Below, piece after piece: positions 15,229 through 34,719 of a stretch of 38,685 bases of DNA. Made by a program: the position numbers and the translations under genes. Source of the DNA: a virus (Duplodnaviria; Caudoviricetes); the IMG/VR virus record IMGVR_UViG_3300047399_000093, positions 1 to 38,685 of that record. One strand, given 5' to 3'. The notes beneath the pieces are model-generated. The model did not search any database. It was not told where the DNA came from and saw only the letters and a program-made list of their open reading frames with translations. Positions within the stretch are counted from its first letter, which is position 1; each line of letters opens with the position of its first letter.

Positions 15229-17145
15229 TCAGTCCCAGAACGACGACCTGGCGGCCGCCTGCGGCGATGCTTGATCCTCGTCATCATCCCGCGTCGCTGG
15301 CGCCGGCTGGGCCCGCTCAGCTCCGCCGGCCGCCTCGACGTCCCATCGCTCGTCGCTCCACCGATCCGCGCCAACCAGGGCCGCGGCCGTACGCGCATAG
15401 ACCCTGCAGTCGAGCGCCTCGTTCCGGGGCCGCGTCTTGATCCACTCGAACCTGTTGTAGCCACGCCGGTCCACCGTGTTCGTCAGCCGCTCGGCGCACA
15501 GCTGCCGGAACCACTCCTCGCCATACTGCGGGAAGTGGCACCAGCCGTGCGGCAGGCCCTCTCCCTCATCCGGCAGTGGCCGCCGCAGCCAGCCATAGAG
15601 CTCTGACTTCGCGGTGCCGGTGCCCACCGGCCACACCTTCACGCCGCCGCGCAGCGCCTTGCCGTTCCGCAGCACCTCCACCCGGCCCGGGGTGCCGATG
15701 ATCGCCGTCTGGCTCTCCTGGCCCTTGATCGCGATCACCCGCATACCGGCCTGGCCACGCACCCAGCGGTAGACCTCCTGGCTCCTGAAGCCTGAGTCGA
15801 TCGCCGTCATCCTGATCGGCAGCCGCTGCCCGTCGCCCCGGCCAAACTCCGACCGCACGAACAGCGACAGCTCGCGCCACACCGCCGGCTGCGCCGTGTC
15901 GCCCGCCAGCACCTGGTAGTCCAGGCTCCAGCTCTCCATGCCGCGCCCCCAGCCCACCACCTCCAGCTCGATGCGATCCATCTGCACGTCGATGCCGCAG
16001 GTGAGGAACACCACCGGATCGGGCACCGTGCCCAGCTCATAGGCCTCGCGGCGGTTGTAGAGCGCTTCCCAGTCCGGCGCCTCGCCGTCGTCGTTCCAGC
16101 ATTCCGCCAGCACCGTGTTGGTCCATGGCTTCAGCTCCGCCGGGTTGTCCTTCGCCTTCTCGTAGCCGACCACCGCATCGGTCCAGCTGAACCATCCCAG
16201 CGGCGCATAGAGCGCCGAGCAGTGGTAGCCCTGCACGCTCCGCTCTGGGAACGTCGCCTCCCACCAGTCGTCGCTGAACACCTCCGGGTCATACCACCAG
16301 GCCTTCGTGTCCTCCTCGATCCCTTCGCCGCACTCCTCGCAGATCAGCACCGGCGCGGTCCGCAGCGTGTTCGGCAGGCCCGGGTCCTTCGGGTCGTACC
16401 GGATCCGGTCCCACACGATCGCCTGCCGGTGCTTGCAGTGAGGGCAGGGCAGCAGCAGGTGCTGCTGGTTGCTGTCCTCCCACTTCGACCAGATCGCGCT
16501 GCGACCCGCGATCGTCGGCGTCGATGTCCAGGCCTGCTTCTTCCGCACGCCGAACGTCCGGGTGCGGGCCGTCACGATCGCCAGCGGGCTTCCTTCCTCG
16601 TCGACGTCGCTGGGCCAGCGGTCGATCTCATCCCCGCCCAGGTAGCGGATCGGCATCGATGCCAGGCCGCTCGCCGCGTTCGCCCCGCCAAGGATCAGGA
16701 AGCCCCCGGTGAACTCCTTCATCAGCTGCGTGTTGCCGCTGTCCCGCTCCCGCGGCGCCTTCACCTTCTCCTGCAGGCTCGGGCTCGCCTCGATCATCGG
16801 GGCGATGCGCATCTTGCTGTAGCGCTTCGCCAGGTCGATCGTCGGCTGCACGAACAGCGCCGGCCCTGGCGCGATGTCCATCGTGTAGCCGGTCCAGTTG
16901 TTCAGCGCCTCGCTCTTGCCCATCTGCGAGCCAAACACCAGCACCACCTCCTGCACCGTGCTGGTGGCCGAAAGGTCGTTCATGGCCTTGCGGAGATAAG
17001 GGGTCCTCGCCGTTCTCCACGGACCGTGCTCACTCGAGGCCTTCGGGCTCAGGATCCGCCGTTGGTCCGCCCACTCGCTGACCGTCAGCAGCGGGTCAGG
17101 CTCCAGCCCCCGTCTGAACGCACGCCGGCACTCCTCAATCAGCAT
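15229..17145 (-). CDS. Terminase large subunit, lambda GpA family
   Basis: TVSEWAD..R, TPY, SQMGKSE (Walker A), LASMPIRYL.GDEIDR (Walker B), STPT, CPHC, GIDVQ.DR, RNEALDC.VY. Confidence 0.97.
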   Translation of the reverse strand: MLIEECRRAFRRGLEPDPLLTVSEWADQRRILSPKASSEHGPWRTARTPYLRKAMNDLSATSTVQEVVLVFGSQMGKSEALNNWTGYTMDIAPGPALFVQPTIDLAKRYSKMRIAPMIEASPSLQEKVKAPRERDSGNTQLMKEFTGGFLILGGANAASGLASMPIRYLGGDEIDRWPSDVDEEGSPLAIVTARTRTFGVRKKQAWTSTPTIAGRSAIWSKWEDSNQQHLLLPCPHCKHRQAIVWDRIRYDPKDPGLPNTLRTAPVLICEECGEGIEEDTKAWWYDPEVFSDDWWEATFPERSVQGYHCSALYAPLGWFSWTDAVVGYEKAKDNPAELKPWTNTVLAECWNDDGEAPDWEALYNRREAYELGTVPDPVVFLTCGIDVQMDRIELEVVGWGRGMESWSLDYQVLAGDTAQPAVWRELSLFVRSEFGRGDGQRLPIRMTAIDSGFRSQEVYRWVRGQAGMRVIAIKGQESQTAIIGTPGRVEVLRNGKALRGGVKVWPVGTGTAKSELYGWLRRPLPDEGEGLPHGWCHFPQYGEEWFRQLCAERLTNTVDRRGYNRFEWIKTRPRNEALDCRVYARTAAALVGADRWSDERWDVEAAGGAERAQPAPATRDDDEDQASPQAAARSSFWD

Positions 17146-17695
17146 CAGCCGCCAATCCCTCAAGGGCCTTCACCAGATGGCGCTCCAGCACCAGCAGCAC
17201 CTCCGCCCGCTGCTCCGGGGTGAGCCCCCCGGCGGCCCGCGCAATGTCGCCGATCATCAGCTGCGGCGTCCGCCGCAACGAGTCCCGCACCCGCCGGCCC
17301 TCCTCGAACCACACGCGCTCCACATCCGCCTTCGGCACCAGCAGGGCCTGGCGCTCTTTCAGGTCGAGCTCCAGCAGCTTCGCCTGGTAGAGCGTCCGCA
17401 GCGCCTGCGCCTGCGCGTGACTCGGCGCCTTCGCCATCACATCCGGCGCCCCACCACCGCCAAGTGGTGGCTGCCGCTGCTCGATCTCCCGCGCACGCTC
17501 CGCCGCGGCGCCACGCTGCTTCGCCGGTGACGTGTTCCGGGCCCACTCCTGGTCAGCGATCTCCGGGTCGATCTGCCAGCGCCGCTTCCCTGCCTGCACC
17601 GCACCCTTCACGATGCGGCCGTCAGCGATCGCCTTCCGCACCGCCCGACCCGTCACGCCGCGCTGCTCGGCGTACTCGTCAGGGGAGATCAGCAC
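17135..17695 (-). CDS. Terminase small subunit (Nu1-like)
   Basis: N-terminal HTH (EYAEQRGVTGRAVRKAIADGRI), coiled coil YQAKLLELDLKER..LVPKADVE; immediately upstream of TerL. Confidence 0.85.
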   Translation of the reverse strand: MLISPDEYAEQRGVTGRAVRKAIADGRIVKGAVQAGKRRWQIDPEIADQEWARNTSPAKQRGAAAERAREIEQRQPPLGGGGAPDVMAKAPSHAQAQALRTLYQAKLLELDLKERQALLVPKADVERVWFEEGRRVRDSLRRTPQLMIGDIARAAGGLTPEQRAEVLLVLERHLVKALEGLAADAD

Positions 17696-17967
17696 AGCTC
17701 AACGAAGAAGCCTTGCTCCGCCAGCTTCCGGCCCACACCAGGCGGGAACGGACGCATCAGCTGGATCGGTGTGTCGGTCCCGGTCATCCCGCGCACCAGC
17801 GTCACCAGCTGGTCAACCAGCATCACCGTGTGGCCGCGGCCCTCCAGCATCTCCTCGACCGTCACCTCGGGGCCCACCGCGCCGAACCGAATGCGCATCG
17901 GCCAGGCCCTCACGTGACCGTCGGGGCCCCACTGGCAGCCATAGGCGATCTGCGCCACCTCAATCAT
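17689..17967 (-). CDS. Hypothetical protein, possible degenerate QueE-like fragment lacking the Fe-S motif
   Basis: MIEVAQIAYGCQWGPDGHVRAWPMRIRFG loosely mirrors the QueE N-terminus (I.EIF.SIQGEG...FIRF.GC); no CxxxCxxC. Confidence 0.45.
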   Translation of the reverse strand: MIEVAQIAYGCQWGPDGHVRAWPMRIRFGAVGPEVTVEEMLEGRGHTVMLVDQLVTLVRGMTGTDTPIQLMRPFPPGVGRKLAEQGFFVELC

Positions 17968-18340
17968 CGAACCCAGCAACGAACGGCCTCGTGCAGGTTG
18001 CAGGTGCATCCTGCCAGGGCATGCGCACCCTGGTGCCGCGCGTCGCCTTCATCACCGACGGCCCGCAGCACGTCATGCTCACCCATGACCACAGCTCACC
18101 GATCTCCGCCCGCAGGTAGCGCGGCGCTCCCTCGAGGACGCCATAGACCAGCAGGCCGCCGGCTCGCGGCCGCTCCGTCACCTCCAGACCCAGGCGGTCT
18201 GCCAGCGCCCAGGCCAGCAGCTTGCCGCCGCGGTCCATCCCACACACGCCCGTCAGATCACGCCGGCACTGTGCAGCGATCAGATCCACCGCCGCATCGA
18301 AGCCCGGCCAGGTCAAGGAGAGGGTTGGGGGAGTGTCCAT
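17960..18340 (-). CDS. Degenerate type I phosphoribosyltransferase-like protein
   Basis: LTWPGFDAAVDLIA...GVCGMDRGGKLLAWALADRLGL and C-terminal VRMPWQ match Gpt-like PRTases; the PRPP loop (VDD..DTG) reads LVYGVLEGA. Confidence 0.65.
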   Translation of the reverse strand: MDTPPTLSLTWPGFDAAVDLIAAQCRRDLTGVCGMDRGGKLLAWALADRLGLEVTERPRAGGLLVYGVLEGAPRYLRAEIGELWSWVSMTCCGPSVMKATRGTRVRMPWQDAPATCTRPFVAGFDD

Positions 18341-18363: not shown

Positions 18364-18537
18364 TCAGCGACCGTTCTTGGTGAACCTGGGAGCGTAGCTT
18401 GAAGGCAGACTGGTTGACTTGAATCGCTTGTTGGCCTGCTGCATCTGATAGCGGGCCTTGGCCTTGCGCCCAGCAGCCACACTTGACCCGCCGGATGCCC
18501 GGCCACTCCCCTTACGGCCTCCGCCACTGCCGGCCAT
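18364..18537 (-). CDS. 57-aa basic Gly/Ser/Lys/Arg-rich peptide (not in the ORF track)
   Basis: MAGSGGGRKGSGRASGGSSVAAGRKAKARYQMQQANKRFKSTSLPSSYAPRFTKNGR*; AGAGGAG RBS 7 nt upstream; TAGAGT -10-like box at 18565-18570. Confidence 0.75.
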   Translation of the reverse strand: MAGSGGGRKGSGRASGGSSVAAGRKAKARYQMQQANKRFKSTSLPSSYAPRFTKNGR

Positions 18538-18567
18538 TCGATTGCTCCTCTGGTCGCCGCCATGACT

Positions 18568-19821
18568 CTAAGCCAGATCTGGAGTCTCGGCGAACGTCTG
18601 CCGCCAGCCCTGCCGGCGGTAGACCATCAACCGATCTCCGTTGTCATCAAGCAGCGGAATGATCTTGTCATTTTCGACCACGCACGCATGCGCGAACCTA
18701 CTGAAGCTCGTTGGGCCCAGGCTCTTGCAGAACAAGTCGTCGTTCCACATGATCCGCCAGAAGCCCTCGACGTCCTGCTTTGGCAGCCGGCCATCCGGCA
18801 GCGGCTTCACGATCGCCCGGTAATGTTTCGCCCGCTTGTGCCGCAGCGGTTCTGACCAATCGAGTTCGGGCAGCGGCGCCAGGATCGACTGTGCCTCCGC
18901 TCGGGTGACGACCAGGCAATCATTCTCGTCGGCAGCCTGCAGGTGTGGATCAAGCTCGTTGATCAACTGGTGCCAGTACGGCATCGGCCGCTCGTAGACC
19001 TCATGCCACGGCTTGAAGAACCTGGTGGGCGCCTCATACGACGTCGAGAACACCTGCAGCCCGATGCCCTGCGCATAGACCAGCGCCGCATCTCCATGGG
19101 CGATGTCGCTCTTGCTGCCCTTCTCTCCACGCGCTCGGATGAAATCCTCCCCCAGCCGATCCCGTGCCTTCTTACTCAGATTGCCCTTGAAGCTCTTGCT
19201 GAAGTACGGCACCTCGATCCACACGCCCCACACGCCCTTCGCCTTCAACAGATCAAGCAGCGGCTCGAACTGCGGCATCCACTCGGCTGTCAGCGGATTC
19301 ACTCCCACCGTCACCACATGCCCGGCCTCAATCAGCTGATCAACCAGCTCCAGCCGGCTCCCGATGCTCGGCGCATGGGGCTCCACTCGCCGCCGCACCT
19401 CGTCATCGAGCATCGGGATGCTCACGTACCAGACGGCCCGGGGCGTCTCGCGAATGATCCGCTCCTGGATCCGCAGGTGCGCCTTGTGCGCTCCCCGCGT
19501 CTGCCACGTCAGCGGGATGCCCAGCTCCACGCACAGCTCCCAAATCGGCTCAAACTGCACCGCGTTGGTGCCAGCCAACGGGTCCACATGATTGCTCACC
19601 AGCATCGGCACCCGCGCCTGCATCAGCCGCGCTTCACGGCTTCGCCGCTGATGGTGCTCCGAGAGCAGGCCCACGATTCCCCGAATGTCTGCCCGCCGGT
19701 CCGGCTTAAACAGGTTCGCGAAGCAGTACGTGCAGGCATGCCCACACCAGTTCATGCTCAGCTCCAGTCCGGCGGGACTGGTAAGGAACTCCCCCGCGTA
19801 GGCCCGGATCCCATCACCCAT
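18568..19821 (-). CDS. Radical SAM enzyme (spore photoproduct lyase-like branch)
   Basis: CGHACTYC (CxxxCxxC) near the N-terminus, VSNHVDPL, VSIPMLDDEVRRRVEPHAPSIGSRL. Confidence 0.88.
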   Translation of the reverse strand: MGDGIRAYAGEFLTSPAGLELSMNWCGHACTYCFANLFKPDRRADIRGIVGLLSEHHQRRSREARLMQARVPMLVSNHVDPLAGTNAVQFEPIWELCVELGIPLTWQTRGAHKAHLRIQERIIRETPRAVWYVSIPMLDDEVRRRVEPHAPSIGSRLELVDQLIEAGHVVTVGVNPLTAEWMPQFEPLLDLLKAKGVWGVWIEVPYFSKSFKGNLSKKARDRLGEDFIRARGEKGSKSDIAHGDAALVYAQGIGLQVFSTSYEAPTRFFKPWHEVYERPMPYWHQLINELDPHLQAADENDCLVVTRAEAQSILAPLPELDWSEPLRHKRAKHYRAIVKPLPDGRLPKQDVEGFWRIMWNDDLFCKSLGPTSFSRFAHACVVENDKIIPLLDDNGDRLMVYRRQGWRQTFAETPDLA

Positions 19822-20425
19822 GGCGCACCTCCCCGAGGAAGTCGCCGACCAATTTCCAGAACGCAGTCTTGTCCTTGCTGTAGCCCAACTCCGCTTTCGC
19901 TTTGCGCCACTGCACCATCTCCTCCGGTGTGAGCACGATCGCCAGGGCCACCCCGCGGTCGATCACATCGTCGCCGCTGTCATCTTCATCCTCGGCGCCG
20001 TCGAACTCACCACCAAGCAGCTTGCTCAGCTCGTCGACATCGAAGCCCAGCAGGTCCACGTCGAAGCCGCCGACCTGGAGCGCTTCCACCTCGGCCTCAA
20101 GGATGCTCAGATCCCAGCCGGACTGCAGCGCCAGCTGATTGTCCGCGATGACGTAGGCACGGCGCTGCGCTTCCGTGAGGTGGCCCAGCACGATCACCGG
20201 CACCTCGGGCAGGCCCAGCTTCTGGGCTGCCGCCAGCCGGCAGTGACCGGCGATCAGCACGCCGTCCGCATCGACCAGCAGGGGGCTGGTGAAGCCGAAC
20301 TCCAGGATGCTCGCGGCCACCGCATCGACCTGCGATGCCGTGTGGGTCCTGGCGTTCCGGCTGTACTTCCGCAGCCGCTCCGTTGGCCAGCGCTCAACCT
20401 TCTCGGGGATGTGGGGGGTTGTCAT
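19814..20425 (-). CDS. ParB/Srx-like N-terminal domain protein
   Basis: RNARTH..Q...ASILEFGFTSPLLVD...AGHCRL.AA..LGL..VPV...QRRAYVIADN. Confidence 0.92.
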   Translation of the reverse strand: MTTPHIPEKVERWPTERLRKYSRNARTHTASQVDAVAASILEFGFTSPLLVDADGVLIAGHCRLAAAQKLGLPEVPVIVLGHLTEAQRRAYVIADNQLALQSGWDLSILEAEVEALQVGGFDVDLLGFDVDELSKLLGGEFDGAEDEDDSGDDVIDRGVALAIVLTPEEMVQWRKAKAELGYSKDKTAFWKLVGDFLGEVRHG

Positions 20426-20444: not shown

Positions 20445-20963
20445 TCACCCCTTCCCCGGCACCCAGGCCCGGTTCAGCCCGCGGCCACGGCCCACCTGCG
20501 CCGGCATCCCCGCGCGGTTCACTAGCCGCTGCACCTCCTCGCGCTCCATCCCAAGGCGCTTCTGGATCGTGCGCTCTGGCACGCCCTCATCCACCATCCG
20601 CCGCACGATGTCCGCCATCCGCAGCACCGCATGCGTGCCCCGGGCTCGGTTGTGCCTGATCGTGCTCATCATCCGGTGCACCGGATCCAGACGCACCTGC
20701 ACAGTAGGCACCAGGCCGCCTGTCAGGCCAGCCACCCTCTGGTCCGTGCTCACCGTCCAGCGGTGGAAGCCATCAACGATCACGAACTTCCCGTCCGCCT
20801 CCGGCAGTGTCACGATCGGACAGGTCCACCCGTCTTCGAGGATGCTCACGATCAGCAGCTCCAGCTCGGGCGGCGCCACGTGGTTCGGGTTGTAGGCGTT
20901 GCCCACCAGGCGGTCGCGCGGCAGCCACCGCACCCGCGACACCGGCTGCTCATCCACGCTCAC
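20445..20963 (-). CDS. ibrB: IbrB/YbdM-like ParB domain protein
   Basis: GTG start overlapping the ibrA-like stop; NAYNPNHVAPPELELL..SI.EDGWTCPIV, IVDGFHR, STIRHNRARGTH, LGMEREEV.RL. Confidence 0.88.
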   Translation of the reverse strand: MSVDEQPVSRVRWLPRDRLVGNAYNPNHVAPPELELLIVSILEDGWTCPIVTLPEADGKFVIVDGFHRWTVSTDQRVAGLTGGLVPTVQVRLDPVHRMMSTIRHNRARGTHAVLRMADIVRRMVDEGVPERTIQKRLGMEREEVQRLVNRAGMPAQVGRGRGLNRAWVPGKG

Positions 20964-22132
20964 CGCTTCACCTCCAGCGCCTTCACCTGCTCGAACGTCA
21001 GGCCCTTCCGCGCCGCTGCCGTGATCGCACGCTGAATCAGCTGCCCCTTCTTCCGGCCCTTCAGGTCGCCGCGGCTCACCATCTGGCACACGTACCGCCA
21101 GCTCAGGCCCGTCATCACGTCGTCCTCCTCCTCGGGGATCGGCCGCGCTGTCTTCTTCCGGTGCATCCGCACCACCTGGGCCACACTCCGCGCGATCTCC
21201 GCACGCTCCTTGGCCGGGTAGAGCTCCAGCAGGCTCATCGCCCAGTCCTTCCAGCTCATCCCCGCCGGCGGCTCCTTCAGCTTCGCCCCATAGAGGTCCG
21301 TCCTGGCGTATCGGCCCGCCGTGTTCACGCCCTCCACGCGCCGCAGCATCCGGTCCCACAGCTCTGGCCAGCCCTCCGGATACTTCCACAACCCACCCAG
21401 CGGCTCCTCGCCGAACGGCGGTGTCACCCGCTGCACCCCGACACTCGTCCCCATCAGGGCCTGCACGTCATAGGCCCGGTTGTAGTCCCAGCCCTCGCGC
21501 GCCGCGGCCACCCACACATCCTCCGCACGCCAGTCGTAGATCGGCTTGCAGTTCGTGTAGTACCCCTGGCGCGGCTCCGCGATGTAGTTGTCGCGCTCCT
21601 TCTTCGTCACGGTCTGCAGCCGCCGCGGACTCTCCTGCGCGCGGATCCCCGTCAGGTCTGCCACCGTCCCGCACTCCGGCCCGAACAGCACCGGGCCCAC
21701 ATCGTCGAGCTGCATCCCCATCCGAAACCGCGGCACGTCCCGCAGCGTCACCACACCCGCCGGCATCGGCCGCACCCACCGGTCGCGCGCCGCCTCGTCC
21801 CAGCAGTTCCACCACGGCTGGTTCCTCGCGCACGCATTCCTGTGCCGGATCGGCAGGCAGCACCACAGCAGCCGCACATCCTCACGGCCACGCACCCGCT
21901 CCACATACTCGACCGTCTCGGGGTAGATCGCTTCCTCGTCCACGAAGTAGACGTCCAGCGGCAGCCGGCCCCGCTCGCGCGCCACCTGGGCCGTCAGGTT
22001 CAGCACCACCGTGCTGTCCTTCCCGCCGCTGAAGCTCACCACCACCCGATCGAACAGGTCGTAGATCCGCCGCACCCTTCCCAGCGCCGCGGCCATCACG
22101 TCCTGCTCCACCTCCACCTTGCGGAGGGTCAT
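20960..22132 (-). CDS. ibrA: IbrA/YbdN-like PP-loop (PAPS reductase family, DUF3440) protein
   Basis: SFSGGKDS PP-loop, WCCLP..RNA, W.CWD, GIRAQES.RR, PIYDW..EDVW, YNRAYD, QRV.PPFG. Confidence 0.92.
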   Translation of the reverse strand: MTLRKVEVEQDVMAAALGRVRRIYDLFDRVVVSFSGGKDSTVVLNLTAQVARERGRLPLDVYFVDEEAIYPETVEYVERVRGREDVRLLWCCLPIRHRNACARNQPWWNCWDEAARDRWVRPMPAGVVTLRDVPRFRMGMQLDDVGPVLFGPECGTVADLTGIRAQESPRRLQTVTKKERDNYIAEPRQGYYTNCKPIYDWRAEDVWVAAAREGWDYNRAYDVQALMGTSVGVQRVTPPFGEEPLGGLWKYPEGWPELWDRMLRRVEGVNTAGRYARTDLYGAKLKEPPAGMSWKDWAMSLLELYPAKERAEIARSVAQVVRMHRKKTARPIPEEEDDVMTGLSWRYVCQMVSRGDLKGRKKGQLIQRAITAAARKGLTFEQVKALEVKR

Positions 22133-22860
22133 CGCGTCCTGAACTCCGCCCGCTCCGGCGCCGCCGCGCTCACCCCCTCGATGATCGTCCTCGTCAGCAT
22201 CGGGTGCTGCTCATCCGTCGGCCCGCAGTCCGAGTCCGGGTGCCACGCCACCACCACCATGCTCTCGTCCGGCTCCGTCCTGAACCGGTGCTCGCCGTCC
22301 GCATGGATCACGAACACCATCCCTGGCAGCAGCGGCTGGCGGCCCTCGCGCGTCACGCACTGCCCACGGCCGCGCAGCACCACGCCAATCCGCACGCTCG
22401 GGTGCGTGTGCATCGTCTGCTCCGTGCCGCCCGGGAACCACAGCCCGTTCAGGCATGGATCCCCCAGCTTCACCGGCGGCACCAGCAGCGTGTCCGTGCA
22501 GCCGTCGATGTACCGCAACCGGCCCTGGGCCTCCACCGGCCCGCCCACCGCGAACATCCCGCGCCATCCGGCCTGAGTGATCACGATCCCCTCCGGCAGG
22601 CCATCAGGATCCCGCACCGGATAGACCGCTGCCTTCCCCGGCACCGACGCATACATGCCCGGCCGCAGCCGGTACCGGTCGCCCTCCCACGGCTCGACCC
22701 ACAGGCCGCCATGGATGCAGAACACGAACGACGTCGCCGCCTCCTCGCCCTGCAGCAGCTGCCCGCCACTCAGCAGCCCGTAGACCCGCGTGCCGCTCCC
22801 CTCCAGATCCAGCAGGAGGCAACTCCGCAGCTTCAGTCCCTCAAACGCCCGATCGACCAT
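22129..22860 (-). CDS. Cupin (bicupin-like) domain protein
   Basis: QTMHTHPSVRIGVVLRGRG...L.PGMVFVIHADGEHRF metal-binding cupin motifs; a second degenerate cupin lies at the N-terminus. Confidence 0.85.
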   Translation of the reverse strand: MVDRAFEGLKLRSCLLLDLEGSGTRVYGLLSGGQLLQGEEAATSFVFCIHGGLWVEPWEGDRYRLRPGMYASVPGKAAVYPVRDPDGLPEGIVITQAGWRGMFAVGGPVEAQGRLRYIDGCTDTLLVPPVKLGDPCLNGLWFPGGTEQTMHTHPSVRIGVVLRGRGQCVTREGRQPLLPGMVFVIHADGEHRFRTEPDESMVVVAWHPDSDCGPTDEQHPMLTRTIIEGVSAAAPERAEFRTR

Positions 22861-23572
22861 CCATCCATTCCCTGCAGATTGCCACCAACGCCTCCGGTGT
22901 GCCCTCCAGGCCCCACCGCTCCTTCGCCATTCGCACCGCGGCCAGCAGCGACTCCCGGTCATCCCACAGCAGGTTCACGCTGAAGACGTGCCGCTCCTCC
23001 ACCTCGCCGCTCTCGGCCGTGGCGTCCGCATCGTCGTCGTCCTCACCGGCGGGCCCCAGGCCCAGGGCCTCCTGCCGCTCTGGTTCCACCCGTTCAGTCC
23101 CGGCCGCTGCCGCCACGCCCTCGAACGATCCCAGGTCCAGATCATCCTGCAGCCGCGCCAGCGCATCGTCGCTCCAGCCCAGCGCATCAAGGTCGAAGTC
23201 CTCCACCCGCAGCGCTTCGAGCTCCGCCTGCAGCACGCTCATGTCCCACCCGGCGTTCTCTGCCAGGCGGTTGTCTGCGATCACATAGGCCCGCCGCTGC
23301 TCAGGCGTCAGGTGGTCGAGCACCACCACCGGCACCTGGGCCAGCCCGAGCCGGCGCGCGGCCTCCAGGCGCCCATGGCCGGCCAGGATCCCGTCCTGCC
23401 CATCCACCAGGATCGGCGCCGTGAAGCCGAACTCCTGCAGGCTCGCCACCAGCTGGCGCAGCTGCTGCTCGGAATGGGTGCGTGCGTTGCGCTCGAATGG
23501 CTTCAGCCGCTCCAGCGGCCATAGCTCCAATCGTGACGCCATCGTCGGCGCCTGGCTCTTGCGTTTCGTCAT
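22841..23572 (-). CDS. ParB/Srx-like N-terminal domain protein (paralogue of 19814-20425)
   Basis: RNARTHS..Q...ASLQEFGFTAPILVD...AGHGRL.AA..LGL..VPV...QRRAYVIADN. Confidence 0.92.
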   Translation of the reverse strand: MTKRKSQAPTMASRLELWPLERLKPFERNARTHSEQQLRQLVASLQEFGFTAPILVDGQDGILAGHGRLEAARRLGLAQVPVVVLDHLTPEQRRAYVIADNRLAENAGWDMSVLQAELEALRVEDFDLDALGWSDDALARLQDDLDLGSFEGVAAAAGTERVEPERQEALGLGPAGEDDDDADATAESGEVEERHVFSVNLLWDDRESLLAAVRMAKERWGLEGTPEALVAICREWMDGRSGV

Positions 23573-23659
23573 GGCGTCATCAGACCACAGCAGGGCCAGT
23601 GGCGGAACCTGACGGAACATCCTCCGGCTTCCGGCGTGATCAGAAAACGGCGGATTTTT

Positions 23660-23912
23660 AGTTGAGAATCCCGGCTTACTATTGAGAAATCCAGTTGCCG
23701 CAATGGATTTCGGGGAAGCAGTCGAAACAAGCTCTGGCTCTCAGCAATGCAGCCACTATTGAGAAACCCAGTCATAGCAAGGGATTTGGAACCCAGATTA
23801 GAACCTGGCTCTAGCCGAAATTTGGGGCATGGATGCGCGCAGTGGGTTTTCCACAGGAGGAACCAAGGGGGTGCCGGAGGGGGTACTGGAAGTTCCGATC
23901 GAAGTTCCGATC
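23660..23912 (-). other. Putative cos/packaging initiation region
   Basis: Non-coding, AT-richer gap upstream of the ParB-terminase operon; cosQ-like GGTTCCT on the minus strand at 23858-23864; direct repeats ACTATTGAGAAAYCCAGT (23678, 23755) and GAAGTTCCGATC x2 (23889-23912). Confidence 0.55.
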
Positions 23913-33995: not shown

Positions 33996-34210
33996 ACCGC
34001 ATCCGTCTGCAGCAGCTGAACGAAAGGCCATGGCGGTTCAAGACCGGTGATCGCCTGTTCGTTCGCGGCTGGCATCAGGGCCAGACCGTGACCGTGCGGC
34101 GTCGCGCCGCCGGCACCTTCCCCACCTACTGGGTGATCGACGAATGGGGTGACTCCTGGCGGATCGCCCAGATCGAACTCAGCTCCCGACCCATCGCTCC
34201 TGACGCATGA
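33992..34210 (+). CDS. Hypothetical protein (SH3-like beta-barrel pattern)
   Basis: WRFKTGDRLFV...PTYWV.DEWG; ATGA overlaps at both ends. Confidence 0.6.
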   Translation: MNRIRLQQLNERPWRFKTGDRLFVRGWHQGQTVTVRRRAAGTFPTYWVIDEWGDSWRIAQIELSSRPIAPDA

Positions 34211-34719
34211 TCCTGCCTGACCACCAGATTGACGAGCTGTGCCGCCAAGGCATGGTGACCCCCTATGACCCAGAACTGCTGAACCCGGCGTCGCTGGACG
34301 TGCGCCTGGGGGATGTGCTCTTGATCGAGTCGGTCGTCTCCCCCGAGATGGTGCCGTACCCGCTCGAAGGACACACCGAGGAGAACCCCTACCTGATGCA
34401 GCCGGGCCAGTTCCTGCTGGCCGAGACCATGGAGTTCTTCGACATCCCGCGGTTCCTGACCGTGGAGTTCAAGCTGAAGAGCAGCCGCGCGAGGGAACGC
34501 CTCGATCACGCGAAAGCGGGATTCGGCGACCCGGGCTGGCACGGCAGCCGGCTAACCATGGAGTTCAAGAACAACAGCCAGTTCTGGCCGGTGCCGCTGT
34601 GGCCTGGCCGGCGGGTGGGGCAGATGGTGTTCTCCCACATGCTTTCGCCGCCGGAGCGCTGCTACCGCGAGACCGGTCGGTACAACAACGACGCCAGGGT
34701 CACGGCATCGAAGGGCTGA
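34207..34719 (+). CDS. dcd: dCTP deaminase
   Basis: MIL.D..I, NPASLDVRLG, PGQFLLAET.E, KSSRAR, AGFGDPG..G..LTME, GQMVF. Confidence 0.93.
   Translation: MILPDHQIDELCRQGMVTPYDPELLNPASLDVRLGDVLLIESVVSPEMVPYPLEGHTEENPYLMQPGQFLLAETMEFFDIPRFLTVEFKLKSSRARERLDHAKAGFGDPGWHGSRLTMEFKNNSQFWPVPLWPGRRVGQMVFSHMLSPPERCYRETGRYNNDARVTASKG

What the first reader, a model, noticed from the sequence alone, without database searches (positions are those of the whole stretch)
18364..19821. Hidden 57-aa histone-tail-like peptide gene directly behind the radical SAM gene
Seen: an ORF below the track cutoff, MAGSGGGRKGSGRASGGSSVAAGRKAKARYQMQQANKRFKSTSLPSSYAPRFTKNGR. It has 13 K/R and no D/E, a strong RBS (AGAGGAG) and its own -10-like TAGAGT overlapping the rSAM stop, so it may be expressed above operon level. 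Known: small peptides next to radical SAM genes are the hallmark of RiPP precursors, and highly basic Gly/Ser peptides can bind or condense DNA. Inference: it may be the rSAM substrate (phage RiPP-like; the Y30, F39, Y48 and F52 aromatics are cross-link candidates), a peptide attached to or packaged with DNA, or a protamine-like core protein.
Basis: partly seen in the sequence, partly recalled or inferred. Interest (0 to 1): 0.8.

Follow-up and report, generated by a model that had tools for sequence, protein, structure and literature searches.

The report
Phage radical-SAM glycine-tag cargo module
This tiny basic gene is real and starts with a glycine-rich tag of a kind that recurs, on peptides and on unrelated larger proteins, beside the same unstudied iron-sulfur enzyme in many uncultured phages, and that enzyme likely fastens the tagged proteins chemically to phage DNA before packaging, a step no experiment has yet tested.

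Summary
The 57-aa ORF (18364-18537, minus strand) is a real gene. It has an RBS, a synonymous-biased substitution pattern and 37 database homologues, and a -10-like hexamer sits 29-35 nt upstream in 22 of 26 relatives. It belongs to a module of a temperate, probably cyanobacterial, phage: ParB-like gene, single-cluster SPL-like radical SAM enzyme, Gly-tagged gene(s), terminase. Among 103 dereplicated enzyme loci, 61 (mechanical rule; 3 of 65 in the outgroup) to 87 (by eye) carry a tagged ORF. The conserved part is a short Gly-Gly tag, here residues 1-17. In 12 loci several unrelated proteins, including ADP-ribosyltransferase and Nudix domains, share one tag; elsewhere the gene shrinks to 10-16 residues (WGGxWY). 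A protamine role therefore cannot explain the family. Best reading (about 40%): the ParB-activated enzyme cross-links tag glycine to DNA thymine, by analogy with phage M6 gp53. Rivals: peptide-only (RiPP-like) modification, or a non-covalent loading tag. No chemistry is shown. Ten literature searches found no description. This scan noted the same layout before on other DNA (e1-6243040), and a DUF4417 analogue.

The parts
18364..18537 (-). 57-aa tagged basic peptide gene
18487..18537 (-). Gly-rich tag, residues 1-17 (M-A-G ... R-x-x-G-G); predicted unstructured
   Evidence: G16 and G17 invariant in 37 of 37 homologues, R13 in 36 of 37; six unrelated proteins of L017 share residues 1-16 (mean identity 0.81 and 0.76, then 0.11); no secondary structure in residues 1-17 and mean pLDDT 47-58 over residues 1-20
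18418..18486 (-). predicted basic helix, residues 18-40 (the variable 'cargo' part; DNA binding inferred)
   Evidence: helix 18-40, pLDDT 85-89 over residues 21-40
18545..18551 (-). Shine-Dalgarno-like AGAGGAG, 7 nt before the ATG
18565..18570 (-). -10-like hexamer TAGAGT overlapping the rSAM stop; position conserved relative to the peptide ATG
   Evidence: 22 of 26 against 23 of 190; no -35 found
18568..19821 (-). 417-aa radical SAM enzyme, SPL/Rv2578c-like clade, one conserved cluster motif, no SPASM cysteines
19723..19746 (-). CxxxCxxC motif (C26, C30, C33)
   Evidence: 99-100% conserved in 100 family members
19814..20425 (-). ParB-like N-terminal-domain protein (203 aa, GHxR motif) overlapping the rSAM start; core partner
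   Evidence: ParB-like gene within 1.5 kb upstream in 73 of 85 family loci against 5 of 49 outgroup loci
17135..17695 (-). terminase small subunit (context)
   Evidence: phrog_57, E 1e-23
15229..17163 (-). lambda GpA-type terminase large subunit (context)
   Evidence: a terminase hit downstream in 63 of 92 family loci scanned

Best explanation
The gene encodes a small basic protein that begins with a conserved Gly-rich tag, and the neighbouring radical SAM enzyme, likely held on double-stranded DNA by the ParB-like partner, likely joins a glycine of that tag covalently to a DNA base (probably thymine), so that the tagged protein would be packaged and injected with the genome. SHOWN by comparison: the gene, its -10-like element, the tag, its reuse on unrelated proteins, and the ParB-rSAM-tag-terminase linkage. 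INFERRED steps: (1) late expression from its own promoter supplies excess peptide, and Met is removed before Ala2; (2) ParB activates the enzyme on dsDNA, as shown for ParB-5mYOX pairs; (3) the 5'-deoxyadenosyl radical takes an H from a tag glycine C-alpha or from the thymine methyl, and a C-C bond forms, a chemistry close to SPL and to M6 gp53; (4) short tags would act as a bulky DNA mark against nucleases, the basic helix here would also neutralise DNA, and large versions would carry effectors into the next host.
For: The tag, not the body, is conserved. GG lies in the first 25 aa of the next ORF in 71 of 103 family loci, against 9 of 65 outgroup loci and 36 of 287 control stops. GGxW occurs in 20 of 103, against 1 of 65 and 1 of 287. 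Twelve loci carry 2-6 unrelated proteins with one tag, kept through synonymous codon changes. Ten-residue genes that are only a tag have strong RBSs coupled to the rSAM stop. In the reverse test, 10 of 20 WGGxWY-stop hits in IMG/VR sit directly behind this enzyme. Tags also occur far from the enzyme in the same phages. Cargo includes ADP-ribosyltransferase (3 proteins) and Nudix domains. DNA involvement: ParB is adjacent in 73 of 85 loci, and ParB activates a phage DNA dioxygenase on dsDNA (PMC13229309). The top Foldseek hit is spore photoproduct lyase, with weak NCBIfam hits to Rv2578c/PA0069. The only match among 50,697 cultured phages is YuA gp12 (24%, E 6e-3). The M6 ORF with the gp53 motif scores 39-43 bits on two of three family profiles, and gp53 is concluded to make a thymine-methyl to glycine C-alpha bond in DNA (PMC8989533 section 18). 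Only three Cys are conserved, which fits single-cluster chemistry.
Against: No experiment shows a reaction, a substrate or virion presence. Proteins of 500-750 aa fixed to DNA would be hard to thread through the terminase and portal unless unfolded or limited to a genome end (own knowledge). The best VIA match is PFL activating enzyme (Z 18.0, rmsd 3.2, 229 aligned), which acts on a peptide glycine with no DNA, ahead of SPL (Z 16.7, rmsd 3.4, 240 aligned). M6 gp53 scores below the distant outgroup (52-118 bits), scores only 22 bits on the closest profile, has two clusters, and acts on glycine already bound to DNA. Coupling two C-H bonds is a net oxidation and needs an acceptor that is not identified here. 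16 of 103 loci show no tag near the enzyme, though 2 of these have one elsewhere. Tags differ between clades (GGxW, ALGAF, YYG, MAG-basic), so no single residue is invariant family-wide. An N-terminal MA[AS]xGGxWxK pattern lay near the enzyme in only 7 of 41 hits.
Confidence: 0.4

Rival explanations
1. Phage RiPP-like system: the enzyme modifies the tag alone (glycine C-alpha chemistry, epimerisation or an internal cross-link), and the modified tag is then read by ParB, terminase or the prohead, or the micro-peptide acts as a free molecule.
For: 10-16-aa RBS-led peptides with W-G-G-x-W look like precursors; the top VIA hit is the peptide-glycine enzyme PFL-AE, and SuiB and SkfB also rank high; some tags follow an extension that could be a leader (ENLQ-CG, YYG, ALGAF classes); tag classes follow enzyme clades (kinship explains this equally well).
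Against: No SPASM or twitch cysteines; sequence affinity is to the SPL/Rv2578c clade, not to peptide maturases; the near-constant ParB partner and the terminase slot are typical of DNA-acting enzymes (PMC13229309); no conserved protease or transporter was seen among the downstream genes scanned.
Confidence: 0.25
2. Two linked but separate jobs: ParB + rSAM put a small mark on DNA bases, while the tag is a non-covalent capsid- or DNA-loading signal like the T4 capsid-targeting sequence, perhaps binding the enzyme or ParB.
For: A shared leader on unrelated proteins that include ADP-ribosyltransferases mirrors T4 Alt and the internal proteins (Alt packaging: PMC5512222 passage; the targeting sequence itself is recalled); a tagged gene lies among head-tail genes about 11 kb from the others; some enzyme loci run straight into terminase genes.
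Against: Tag-only 10-aa genes have no cargo to load; a loading signal should follow the capsid type, yet the tags accompany one enzyme family across at least five terminase families; a different tag (MGGRG) goes with a different enzyme (DUF4417 upstream in 15 of 22 scanned; this rSAM in 0 of 124 loci).
Confidence: 0.22
3. Protamine- or histone-like core protein that condenses DNA by charge, next to the enzyme only by operon habit.
For: pI 12, 13 K/R, no D/E; predicted basic helix; own -10-like element; most relatives in this clade are basic.
Against: Selection is strongest on the Gly/Ser tag (G16, G17 invariant), not on charge; family members include acidic or neutral micro-peptides and large enzymes. 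It may still describe what the C-terminal 40 residues do in this phage.
Confidence: 0.1
4. A chance ORF in GC-rich spacer DNA.
For: 7 of 176 short ORFs in the window have an equally basic composition; no RNA or proteomic data are at hand.
Against: 37 homologues, synonymous bias, conserved position and promoter element.
Confidence: 0.02

Closest known systems
Pseudomonas phage M6 gp53 glycinyl-thymine isomerase (PMC8989533; section 18 and passages read)
   Same: Phage SPL-like radical SAM enzyme concluded to form a thymine-methyl to glycine C-alpha bond in DNA; weakly homologous to this family (39-43 bits on two profiles; YuA gp12 is the only cultured-phage hit).
   Different: It uses free glycine pre-attached to phosphorylated 5-hmU by gp51/gp54, has about 9 Fe (two clusters), and has no ribosomal tag partner in the section read. 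Here there is one cluster, no hmU-pathway gene among the window ORFs scanned, and a peptide gene beside it.
Spore photoproduct lyase SplB and the Rv2578c/PA0069 families
   Same: Top Foldseek hit (4FHF, E 4e-6) and second VIA hit (Z 16.7); weak NCBIfam matches.
   Different: Scores are far below the cut-offs (31.5 against 430; 28.5 against 360); no SplB model hit; an extra C-terminal region of about 130 aa has no usable match; phage packaging context.
ParB-dependent phage thymine dioxygenases, 5mYOX176 + ParB176 (PMC13229309; abstract and passages read)
   Same: A short ParB-like partner (only ParB_N detected here) beside a phage enzyme, often near terminases; there ParB is needed for activity on dsDNA.
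   Different: The partner is an Fe/2OG dioxygenase; 'radical' and 'rSAM' do not occur in that paper's main text; no peptide tags in the passages read.
Type IV CBASS Cap9/Cap10 deazaguanylation (10.1101/2025.04.06.647259; abstract and passages read)
   Same: A Gly-rich N-terminal tag, M(G/S)G(G/S)GG, is the site of a nucleobase-protein conjugation by an enzyme borrowed from nucleic-acid modification.
   Different: Host defence system; QueC amide chemistry on the Gly2 amine with a free base; the tags here mostly begin Met-Ala and are sometimes internal or C-terminal.
T4 internal proteins and Alt with a capsid-targeting leader; MuF-fused effectors (PMC5512222 passages; the T4 leader itself recalled)
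   Same: Unrelated proteins, ADP-ribosyltransferases among them, are routed to the head; a shared short N-terminal sequence.
   Different: No dedicated modifying enzyme or ParB is known to me for those; the tags here track an enzyme family.
ParB-DUF4417 with MGGRG-tagged neighbours (unpublished as a system in my searches; the fusion is noted in 10.1101/2025.10.10.680097)
   Same: Same layout: (ParB)-enzyme, then swappable Gly-tagged proteins (DUF4417 upstream in 15 of 22 scanned).
   Different: Unrelated enzyme; the tag starts with Gly2; never found with this rSAM in 124 loci.
Radical SAM RiPP maturases (SuiB/SuiA streptide, SkfB, EpeE/YydG)
   Same: Small peptide gene next to an rSAM; fold similarity. 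The x-G-G-x-W spacing recalls streptide's Lys-to-Trp ring (recalled, a lead only).
   Different: No SPASM cysteines, no transporter or protease seen, cargo up to 751 aa, ParB and terminase context.

Membership tests
Radical SAM RiPP system | short ribosomal peptide gene consistently beside the enzyme | tested here: met
   61 of 103 by rule against 3 of 65; 87 of 103 by eye; reverse test 10 of 20
Radical SAM RiPP system | SPASM/twitch auxiliary-cluster cysteines | tested here: not met
   only C26, C30, C33 conserved; the next Cys column reaches 53% and is Leu here; Pfam gives Radical_SAM only
Radical SAM RiPP system | RRE/PqqD-like recognition domain | tested here: inconclusive
   no Pfam hit; the C-terminal region was barely tested by the fold search and gave no usable atlas hit
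Radical SAM RiPP system | enzyme shown to modify the peptide | not testable with these tools
   needs mass spectrometry
Spore photoproduct lyase (SplB) | curated family model reached | tested here: not met
   no SplB model among NCBIfam hits at E <= 0.05
Spore photoproduct lyase (SplB) | conserved fourth, H-donor cysteine (recalled feature) | tested here: not met
   no conserved Cys in the barrel beyond the cluster triad; S76-N77-x-x-D80 is 97-100% conserved; its equivalence to the SPL Cys region is my inference
Rv2578c / PA0069 rSAM | NCBIfam cut-off | tested here: not met
   31.5 against 430 and 28.5 against 360 bits
M6 gp53 glycinyl-thymine isomerase pathway | clear sequence membership | tested here: not met
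   22-43 bits against >=194 for family members
M6 gp53 glycinyl-thymine isomerase pathway | 5-hmU synthase, kinase and amino acid:DNA transferase genes nearby | tested here: inconclusive
   none among the window ORFs scanned (26 on Pfam, 10 + 27 on PHROGs, with overlap); not every ORF was scanned; a dCTP deaminase is present
ParB-activated phage DNA-modifying enzyme | short ParB-like gene directly beside the enzyme | tested here: met
   58 of 85 directly upstream, 73 of 85 within 1.5 kb
ParB-activated phage DNA-modifying enzyme | modified base in phage DNA that depends on ParB | not testable with these tools
   needs nucleoside LC-MS
T4-type capsid-targeted internal proteins | one short N-terminal sequence shared by unrelated proteins of a phage | tested here: met
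   12 family loci; the window itself has a single tagged gene
T4-type capsid-targeted internal proteins | presence in virions and leader removal by the prohead protease | not testable with these tools
   no virion proteome
Protamine/histone-like core protein | small, highly basic, no acidic residues | tested here: met
   (this protein only)
Protamine/histone-like core protein | basic charge conserved across the gene slot | tested here: not met
   neutral or acidic 10-24-aa peptides and large enzymes occupy it

The most novel reading that the evidence does not exclude
Phages use a ParB-guided radical SAM enzyme to staple ribosomally made peptides, and any protein that carries the same short glycine tag, onto their own DNA. 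This would be a genetically programmable DNA-protein conjugation that both hypermodifies the genome and delivers effector enzymes with it, and DUF4417/MGGRG loci would be a convergent version.
Probability: 0.35. Interest if true: 0.95.

Novelty: categorically new. Interest (0 to 1): 0.78.

Why it matters
Known phage DNA hypermodifications use sugars, amines or free amino acids, and known virion-delivered effectors ride on structural fusions or capsid leaders. An enzyme family dedicated to a short, swappable peptide tag at the head of packaging operons fits neither kind. It is widespread: 298 clusters at 50% identity with E <= 1e-30, in prophages of cyanobacteria, Bacteroidota, Acidobacteriota and Pseudomonadota, and it has no full-length match among 50,697 cultured-phage records in three queries. 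Under any of the three main readings it gives new radical SAM chemistry and a direct handle on how phages bring proteins in with their DNA. The 10-residue versions make the test cheap. If the conjugation is real, it would also be a site-specific protein-DNA ligation tool.

Tried and rejected
The complex prediction of enzyme with peptide could not be run because the queue was full; this says nothing on binding. No RNA holder was listed for the region. The sigma-70 consensus scan found nothing. The peptide has no Pfam, PHROG or NCBIfam hit. A profile search of PDB sequences gave nothing significant. The atlas search of rSAM residues 275-417 gave no usable hit; the full-length search gave only unnamed, mostly viral clusters. 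Locus search with the wide peptide alignment was not possible. The maximum-likelihood tree timed out; a FastTree tree was used, with 33 of 103 inner branches open, and clade-tag agreement is not taken as co-evolution. Rejected as part of the module: the upstream cupin, IbrA-like and IbrB-like genes and the downstream PRTase-like and 106-aa genes (1-2 of 102 other loci each; IbrA 1 of 54 with enough upstream DNA). Rejected: the 73-aa ORF starting 4 nt after the rSAM stop and the other frames, which vary more or contain stops. The shared-N-terminus test has background: 15 of 103 flagged, 3 dropped by eye as repeats or chance, with 3 on the minus strand and 5 and 6 of 65 in the outgroup. The mechanical tag rule has both false positives and false negatives. 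The outgroup (52-118 bits) was not annotated one by one, and at least one member (L218) is a family fragment. Literature: searches found no description of this module. The library lacks most subscription papers, and I opened no supplements, where such neighbourhoods could be listed.

Full report
Setting. The window is a 38,685-nt virus record of a temperate tailed phage: integrase, RecT, SSB, VapE-like and helicase genes, lambda GpA-type terminase, portal, capsid and baseplate genes. Close relatives of the enzyme lie in Synechococcaceae and Cyanobium assemblies (83% and 59% identity) and the run holding it is a freshwater metagenome, so a picocyanobacterial host is likely (inference). The minus-strand order is ParB-like, cupin, IbrA-like, IbrB-like, ParB-like, rSAM, peptide, PRTase-like, 106-aa ORF, terS, terL.

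Observation. The ORF, its translation, the SD and the TAGAGT hexamer are as stated. Basic composition alone proves little: 7 of 176 short ATG ORFs in the window are as basic. Conservation does. A profile of six peptides found 37 homologues, and two public annotations give peptide and enzyme consecutive locus tags. Substitutions are mainly synonymous, and both variants inside the ORF in two other runs are at third positions. A TAnnnT hexamer begins 29-35 nt before the ATG in 22 of 26 unique upstream regions, against 23 of 190 controls, and in several relatives it lies off the stop codon. This supports an internal -10-type promoter, but no transcript was seen.

The enzyme. It is a 417-aa radical SAM protein, modelled at pLDDT 94. 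Foldseek ranks spore photoproduct lyase first. VIA ranks PFL activating enzyme (Z 18.0) and SPL (Z 16.7) first. NCBIfam hits to Rv2578c and PA0069 are far below cut-off. Across 100 members only the three cluster cysteines are conserved. The family is discrete: of 307 loci, 180 clusters at 90% identity remained, 168 with enough downstream DNA; 103 scored >=194 bits and 65 scored <=118. It has 298 representatives at E <= 1e-30. Three tblastn searches of 50,697 cultured-phage records found only YuA gp12, at 24%. The M6 ORF with the gp53 motif scores 22, 39 and 43 bits on three family profiles, a distant relation.

The module. A ParB-like gene lies directly upstream in 58 of 85 loci with enough DNA and within 1.5 kb in 73, against 5 of 49 in the outgroup. 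A terminase subunit was hit downstream in 63 of 92 loci scanned (103 ORFs picked from 168 candidates), from at least five large-subunit families. The cupin, IbrA/IbrB-like, PRTase-like and 106-aa genes occur in 1-2 of 102 other loci and are passengers.

The tag. A mechanical rule found a Gly-rich basic N-terminus just after the enzyme in 61 of 103 loci against 3 of 65. By eye 87 of 103 have a candidate and 16 have none nearby; two of those 16 carry their clade's tag elsewhere on the contig. GGxW within the first 25 residues occurs in 20 of 103, against 1 of 65 and 1 of 287 control stops. In 12 loci two to six proteins share one N-terminal sequence and are otherwise unrelated. In the eight loci examined, identity is 0.70-1.00 over residues 1-10 and 0.00-0.20 over 17-36, with synonymous variation in the shared part in seven. 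Cargo includes three ADP-ribosyltransferase domains, one Nudix and two ParB-like domains; most of the 42 cargo scans hit nothing. In the 7.3-Mb Oculatella assembly all four pattern matches lie on one contig, three beside the enzyme and one among head-tail-like genes. At the other extreme the gene is 10-16 codons, ending W-G-G-x-W-[YF], with strong RBSs in several. Scanning IMG/VR for that ending gave 20 hits: 10 directly behind the enzyme, one behind a truncated copy, one behind a ParB-like gene without the enzyme, and 8 with no nearby start. The N-terminal GGxW pattern was less specific: 7 of 41, with 29 hits from one unrelated recurring ORF.

The tag in this phage. L017, whose enzyme is about 70% identical, carries six unrelated proteins sharing residues 1-16, ending R-x-x-G-G. 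This matches residues 1-17 here, where G16 and G17 are invariant in 37 of 37 homologues and all 23 clade peptides have R-x(2,3)-G-G. AlphaFold leaves residues 1-17 without structure and makes 18-40 a helix. The named aromatics lie outside the tag and fade across the clade (18, 8, 6 and 2 of 23). Which glycine would react is not determined.

A parallel. A recalled MGGRG tag gave 124 viral loci, none with this enzyme; DUF4417 was upstream in 15 of 22 scanned, two with a weak ParB hit. Tag type therefore follows enzyme type. Earlier notes of this scan describe the DUF4417 version and one ParB-rSAM-peptide module. I could not show that the latter is the same family (searches returned nothing), and such notes are not independent support.

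Mechanism. Shown: linkage and a transferable tag. Inferred: the tag is the enzyme's substrate, because tag-only genes have no other content and tags track the enzyme rather than the terminase type. Inferred: DNA is the co-substrate, because ParB partners activate a phage DNA dioxygenase on dsDNA (PMC13229309, abstract and passages) and the nearest characterised relatives act on thymine in DNA, gp53 being concluded to form a thymine-glycine C-C bond (PMC8989533, passages and section 18). A Gly-rich N-terminus is also the conjugation site in type IV CBASS (10.1101/2025.04.06.647259, abstract and passages). Against: no oxidant is identified for a C-H/C-H coupling, large folded cargo should hinder packaging, the best VIA match is a peptide-only enzyme, and no residue is invariant across all tag classes. 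I give 0.40 to peptide-DNA conjugation, 0.25 to peptide-only modification, 0.22 to a separate DNA mark plus a non-covalent tag, 0.10 to a simple basic core protein and 0.02 to a chance ORF.

Novelty. Ten searches found no description. PMC5512222 and 10.1101/2025.10.10.680097 (passages only) cover head-packaged effectors and ParB fusions, and the passages seen do not mention this module. Subscription papers and supplements were not seen. It fails the membership tests for SplB, Rv2578c/PA0069, SPASM maturases and the gp53 pathway, while working plausibly like a hybrid of them. I rate the architecture categorically new, with the chemistry open; interest 0.78.

Noticed in passing
window 20445-23620 (minus): ParB-like, cupin, IbrA-like (PAPS reductase + DUF3440) and IbrB-like genes ahead of the module; a separate cassette, with the rSAM family in only 1-2 of 102 other loci. 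Earlier notes found it with a QueE-like gene.
   Followed up: partly
window 17689-18340 (minus): PRTase-like gene (phrog_8995, E 0.002) and a 106-aa ORF of no family between the peptide and terS; present in 1 and 2 of 102 other loci.
   Followed up: partly
window, upstream of 15209 and 13416 (minus): TAGCAT and TAGAAT hexamers 18 and 21 nt before the head-tail adaptor and capsid ORF starts, like the one before the peptide; possible internal late promoters.
   Followed up: no
window 23630-23900: Non-coding stretch directly before the first ParB gene with repeated ctattgagaaa; by position a candidate cos/packaging-start region (inference).
   Followed up: no
window 34207-34719 (plus): dCTP deaminase (phrog_1663, E 9e-48) in the early region.
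   Followed up: no
L017:804-4834; proteins P0166, P0190: Some family enzymes carry intein-like insertions; in L017 the gene is also interrupted by a 412-aa ORF that looks like a transposase (recalled resemblance).
   Followed up: no
L200:7241-7828, L233:4820-5206: Tagged ORFs with an acidic leader ending E-E-N-L-Q before Cys-Gly and a Gly run, suggesting protease exposure of the tag.
   Followed up: no
L104 and L107, directly after the rSAM stop: Acidic 21-24-aa peptides sharing Y-S-G-G-S-S-F-A-E-D-V-G-G, which resembles S-G-G-S-S-V-A in the window peptide.
   Followed up: partly
rSAM residue 206: His in 75% of the family but Tyr in the window enzyme; whether it follows tag class was not tested.
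   Followed up: no
L448:2017-2521: A 10-aa WGGxWY gene with an RBS behind an apparently damaged ParB-like ORF, with no rSAM within 2.5 kb; possibly a decayed module.
   Followed up: partly
L317-L440: MGGRG-tagged proteins behind DUF4417, several loci with 2-3 tagged genes.
   Followed up: partly
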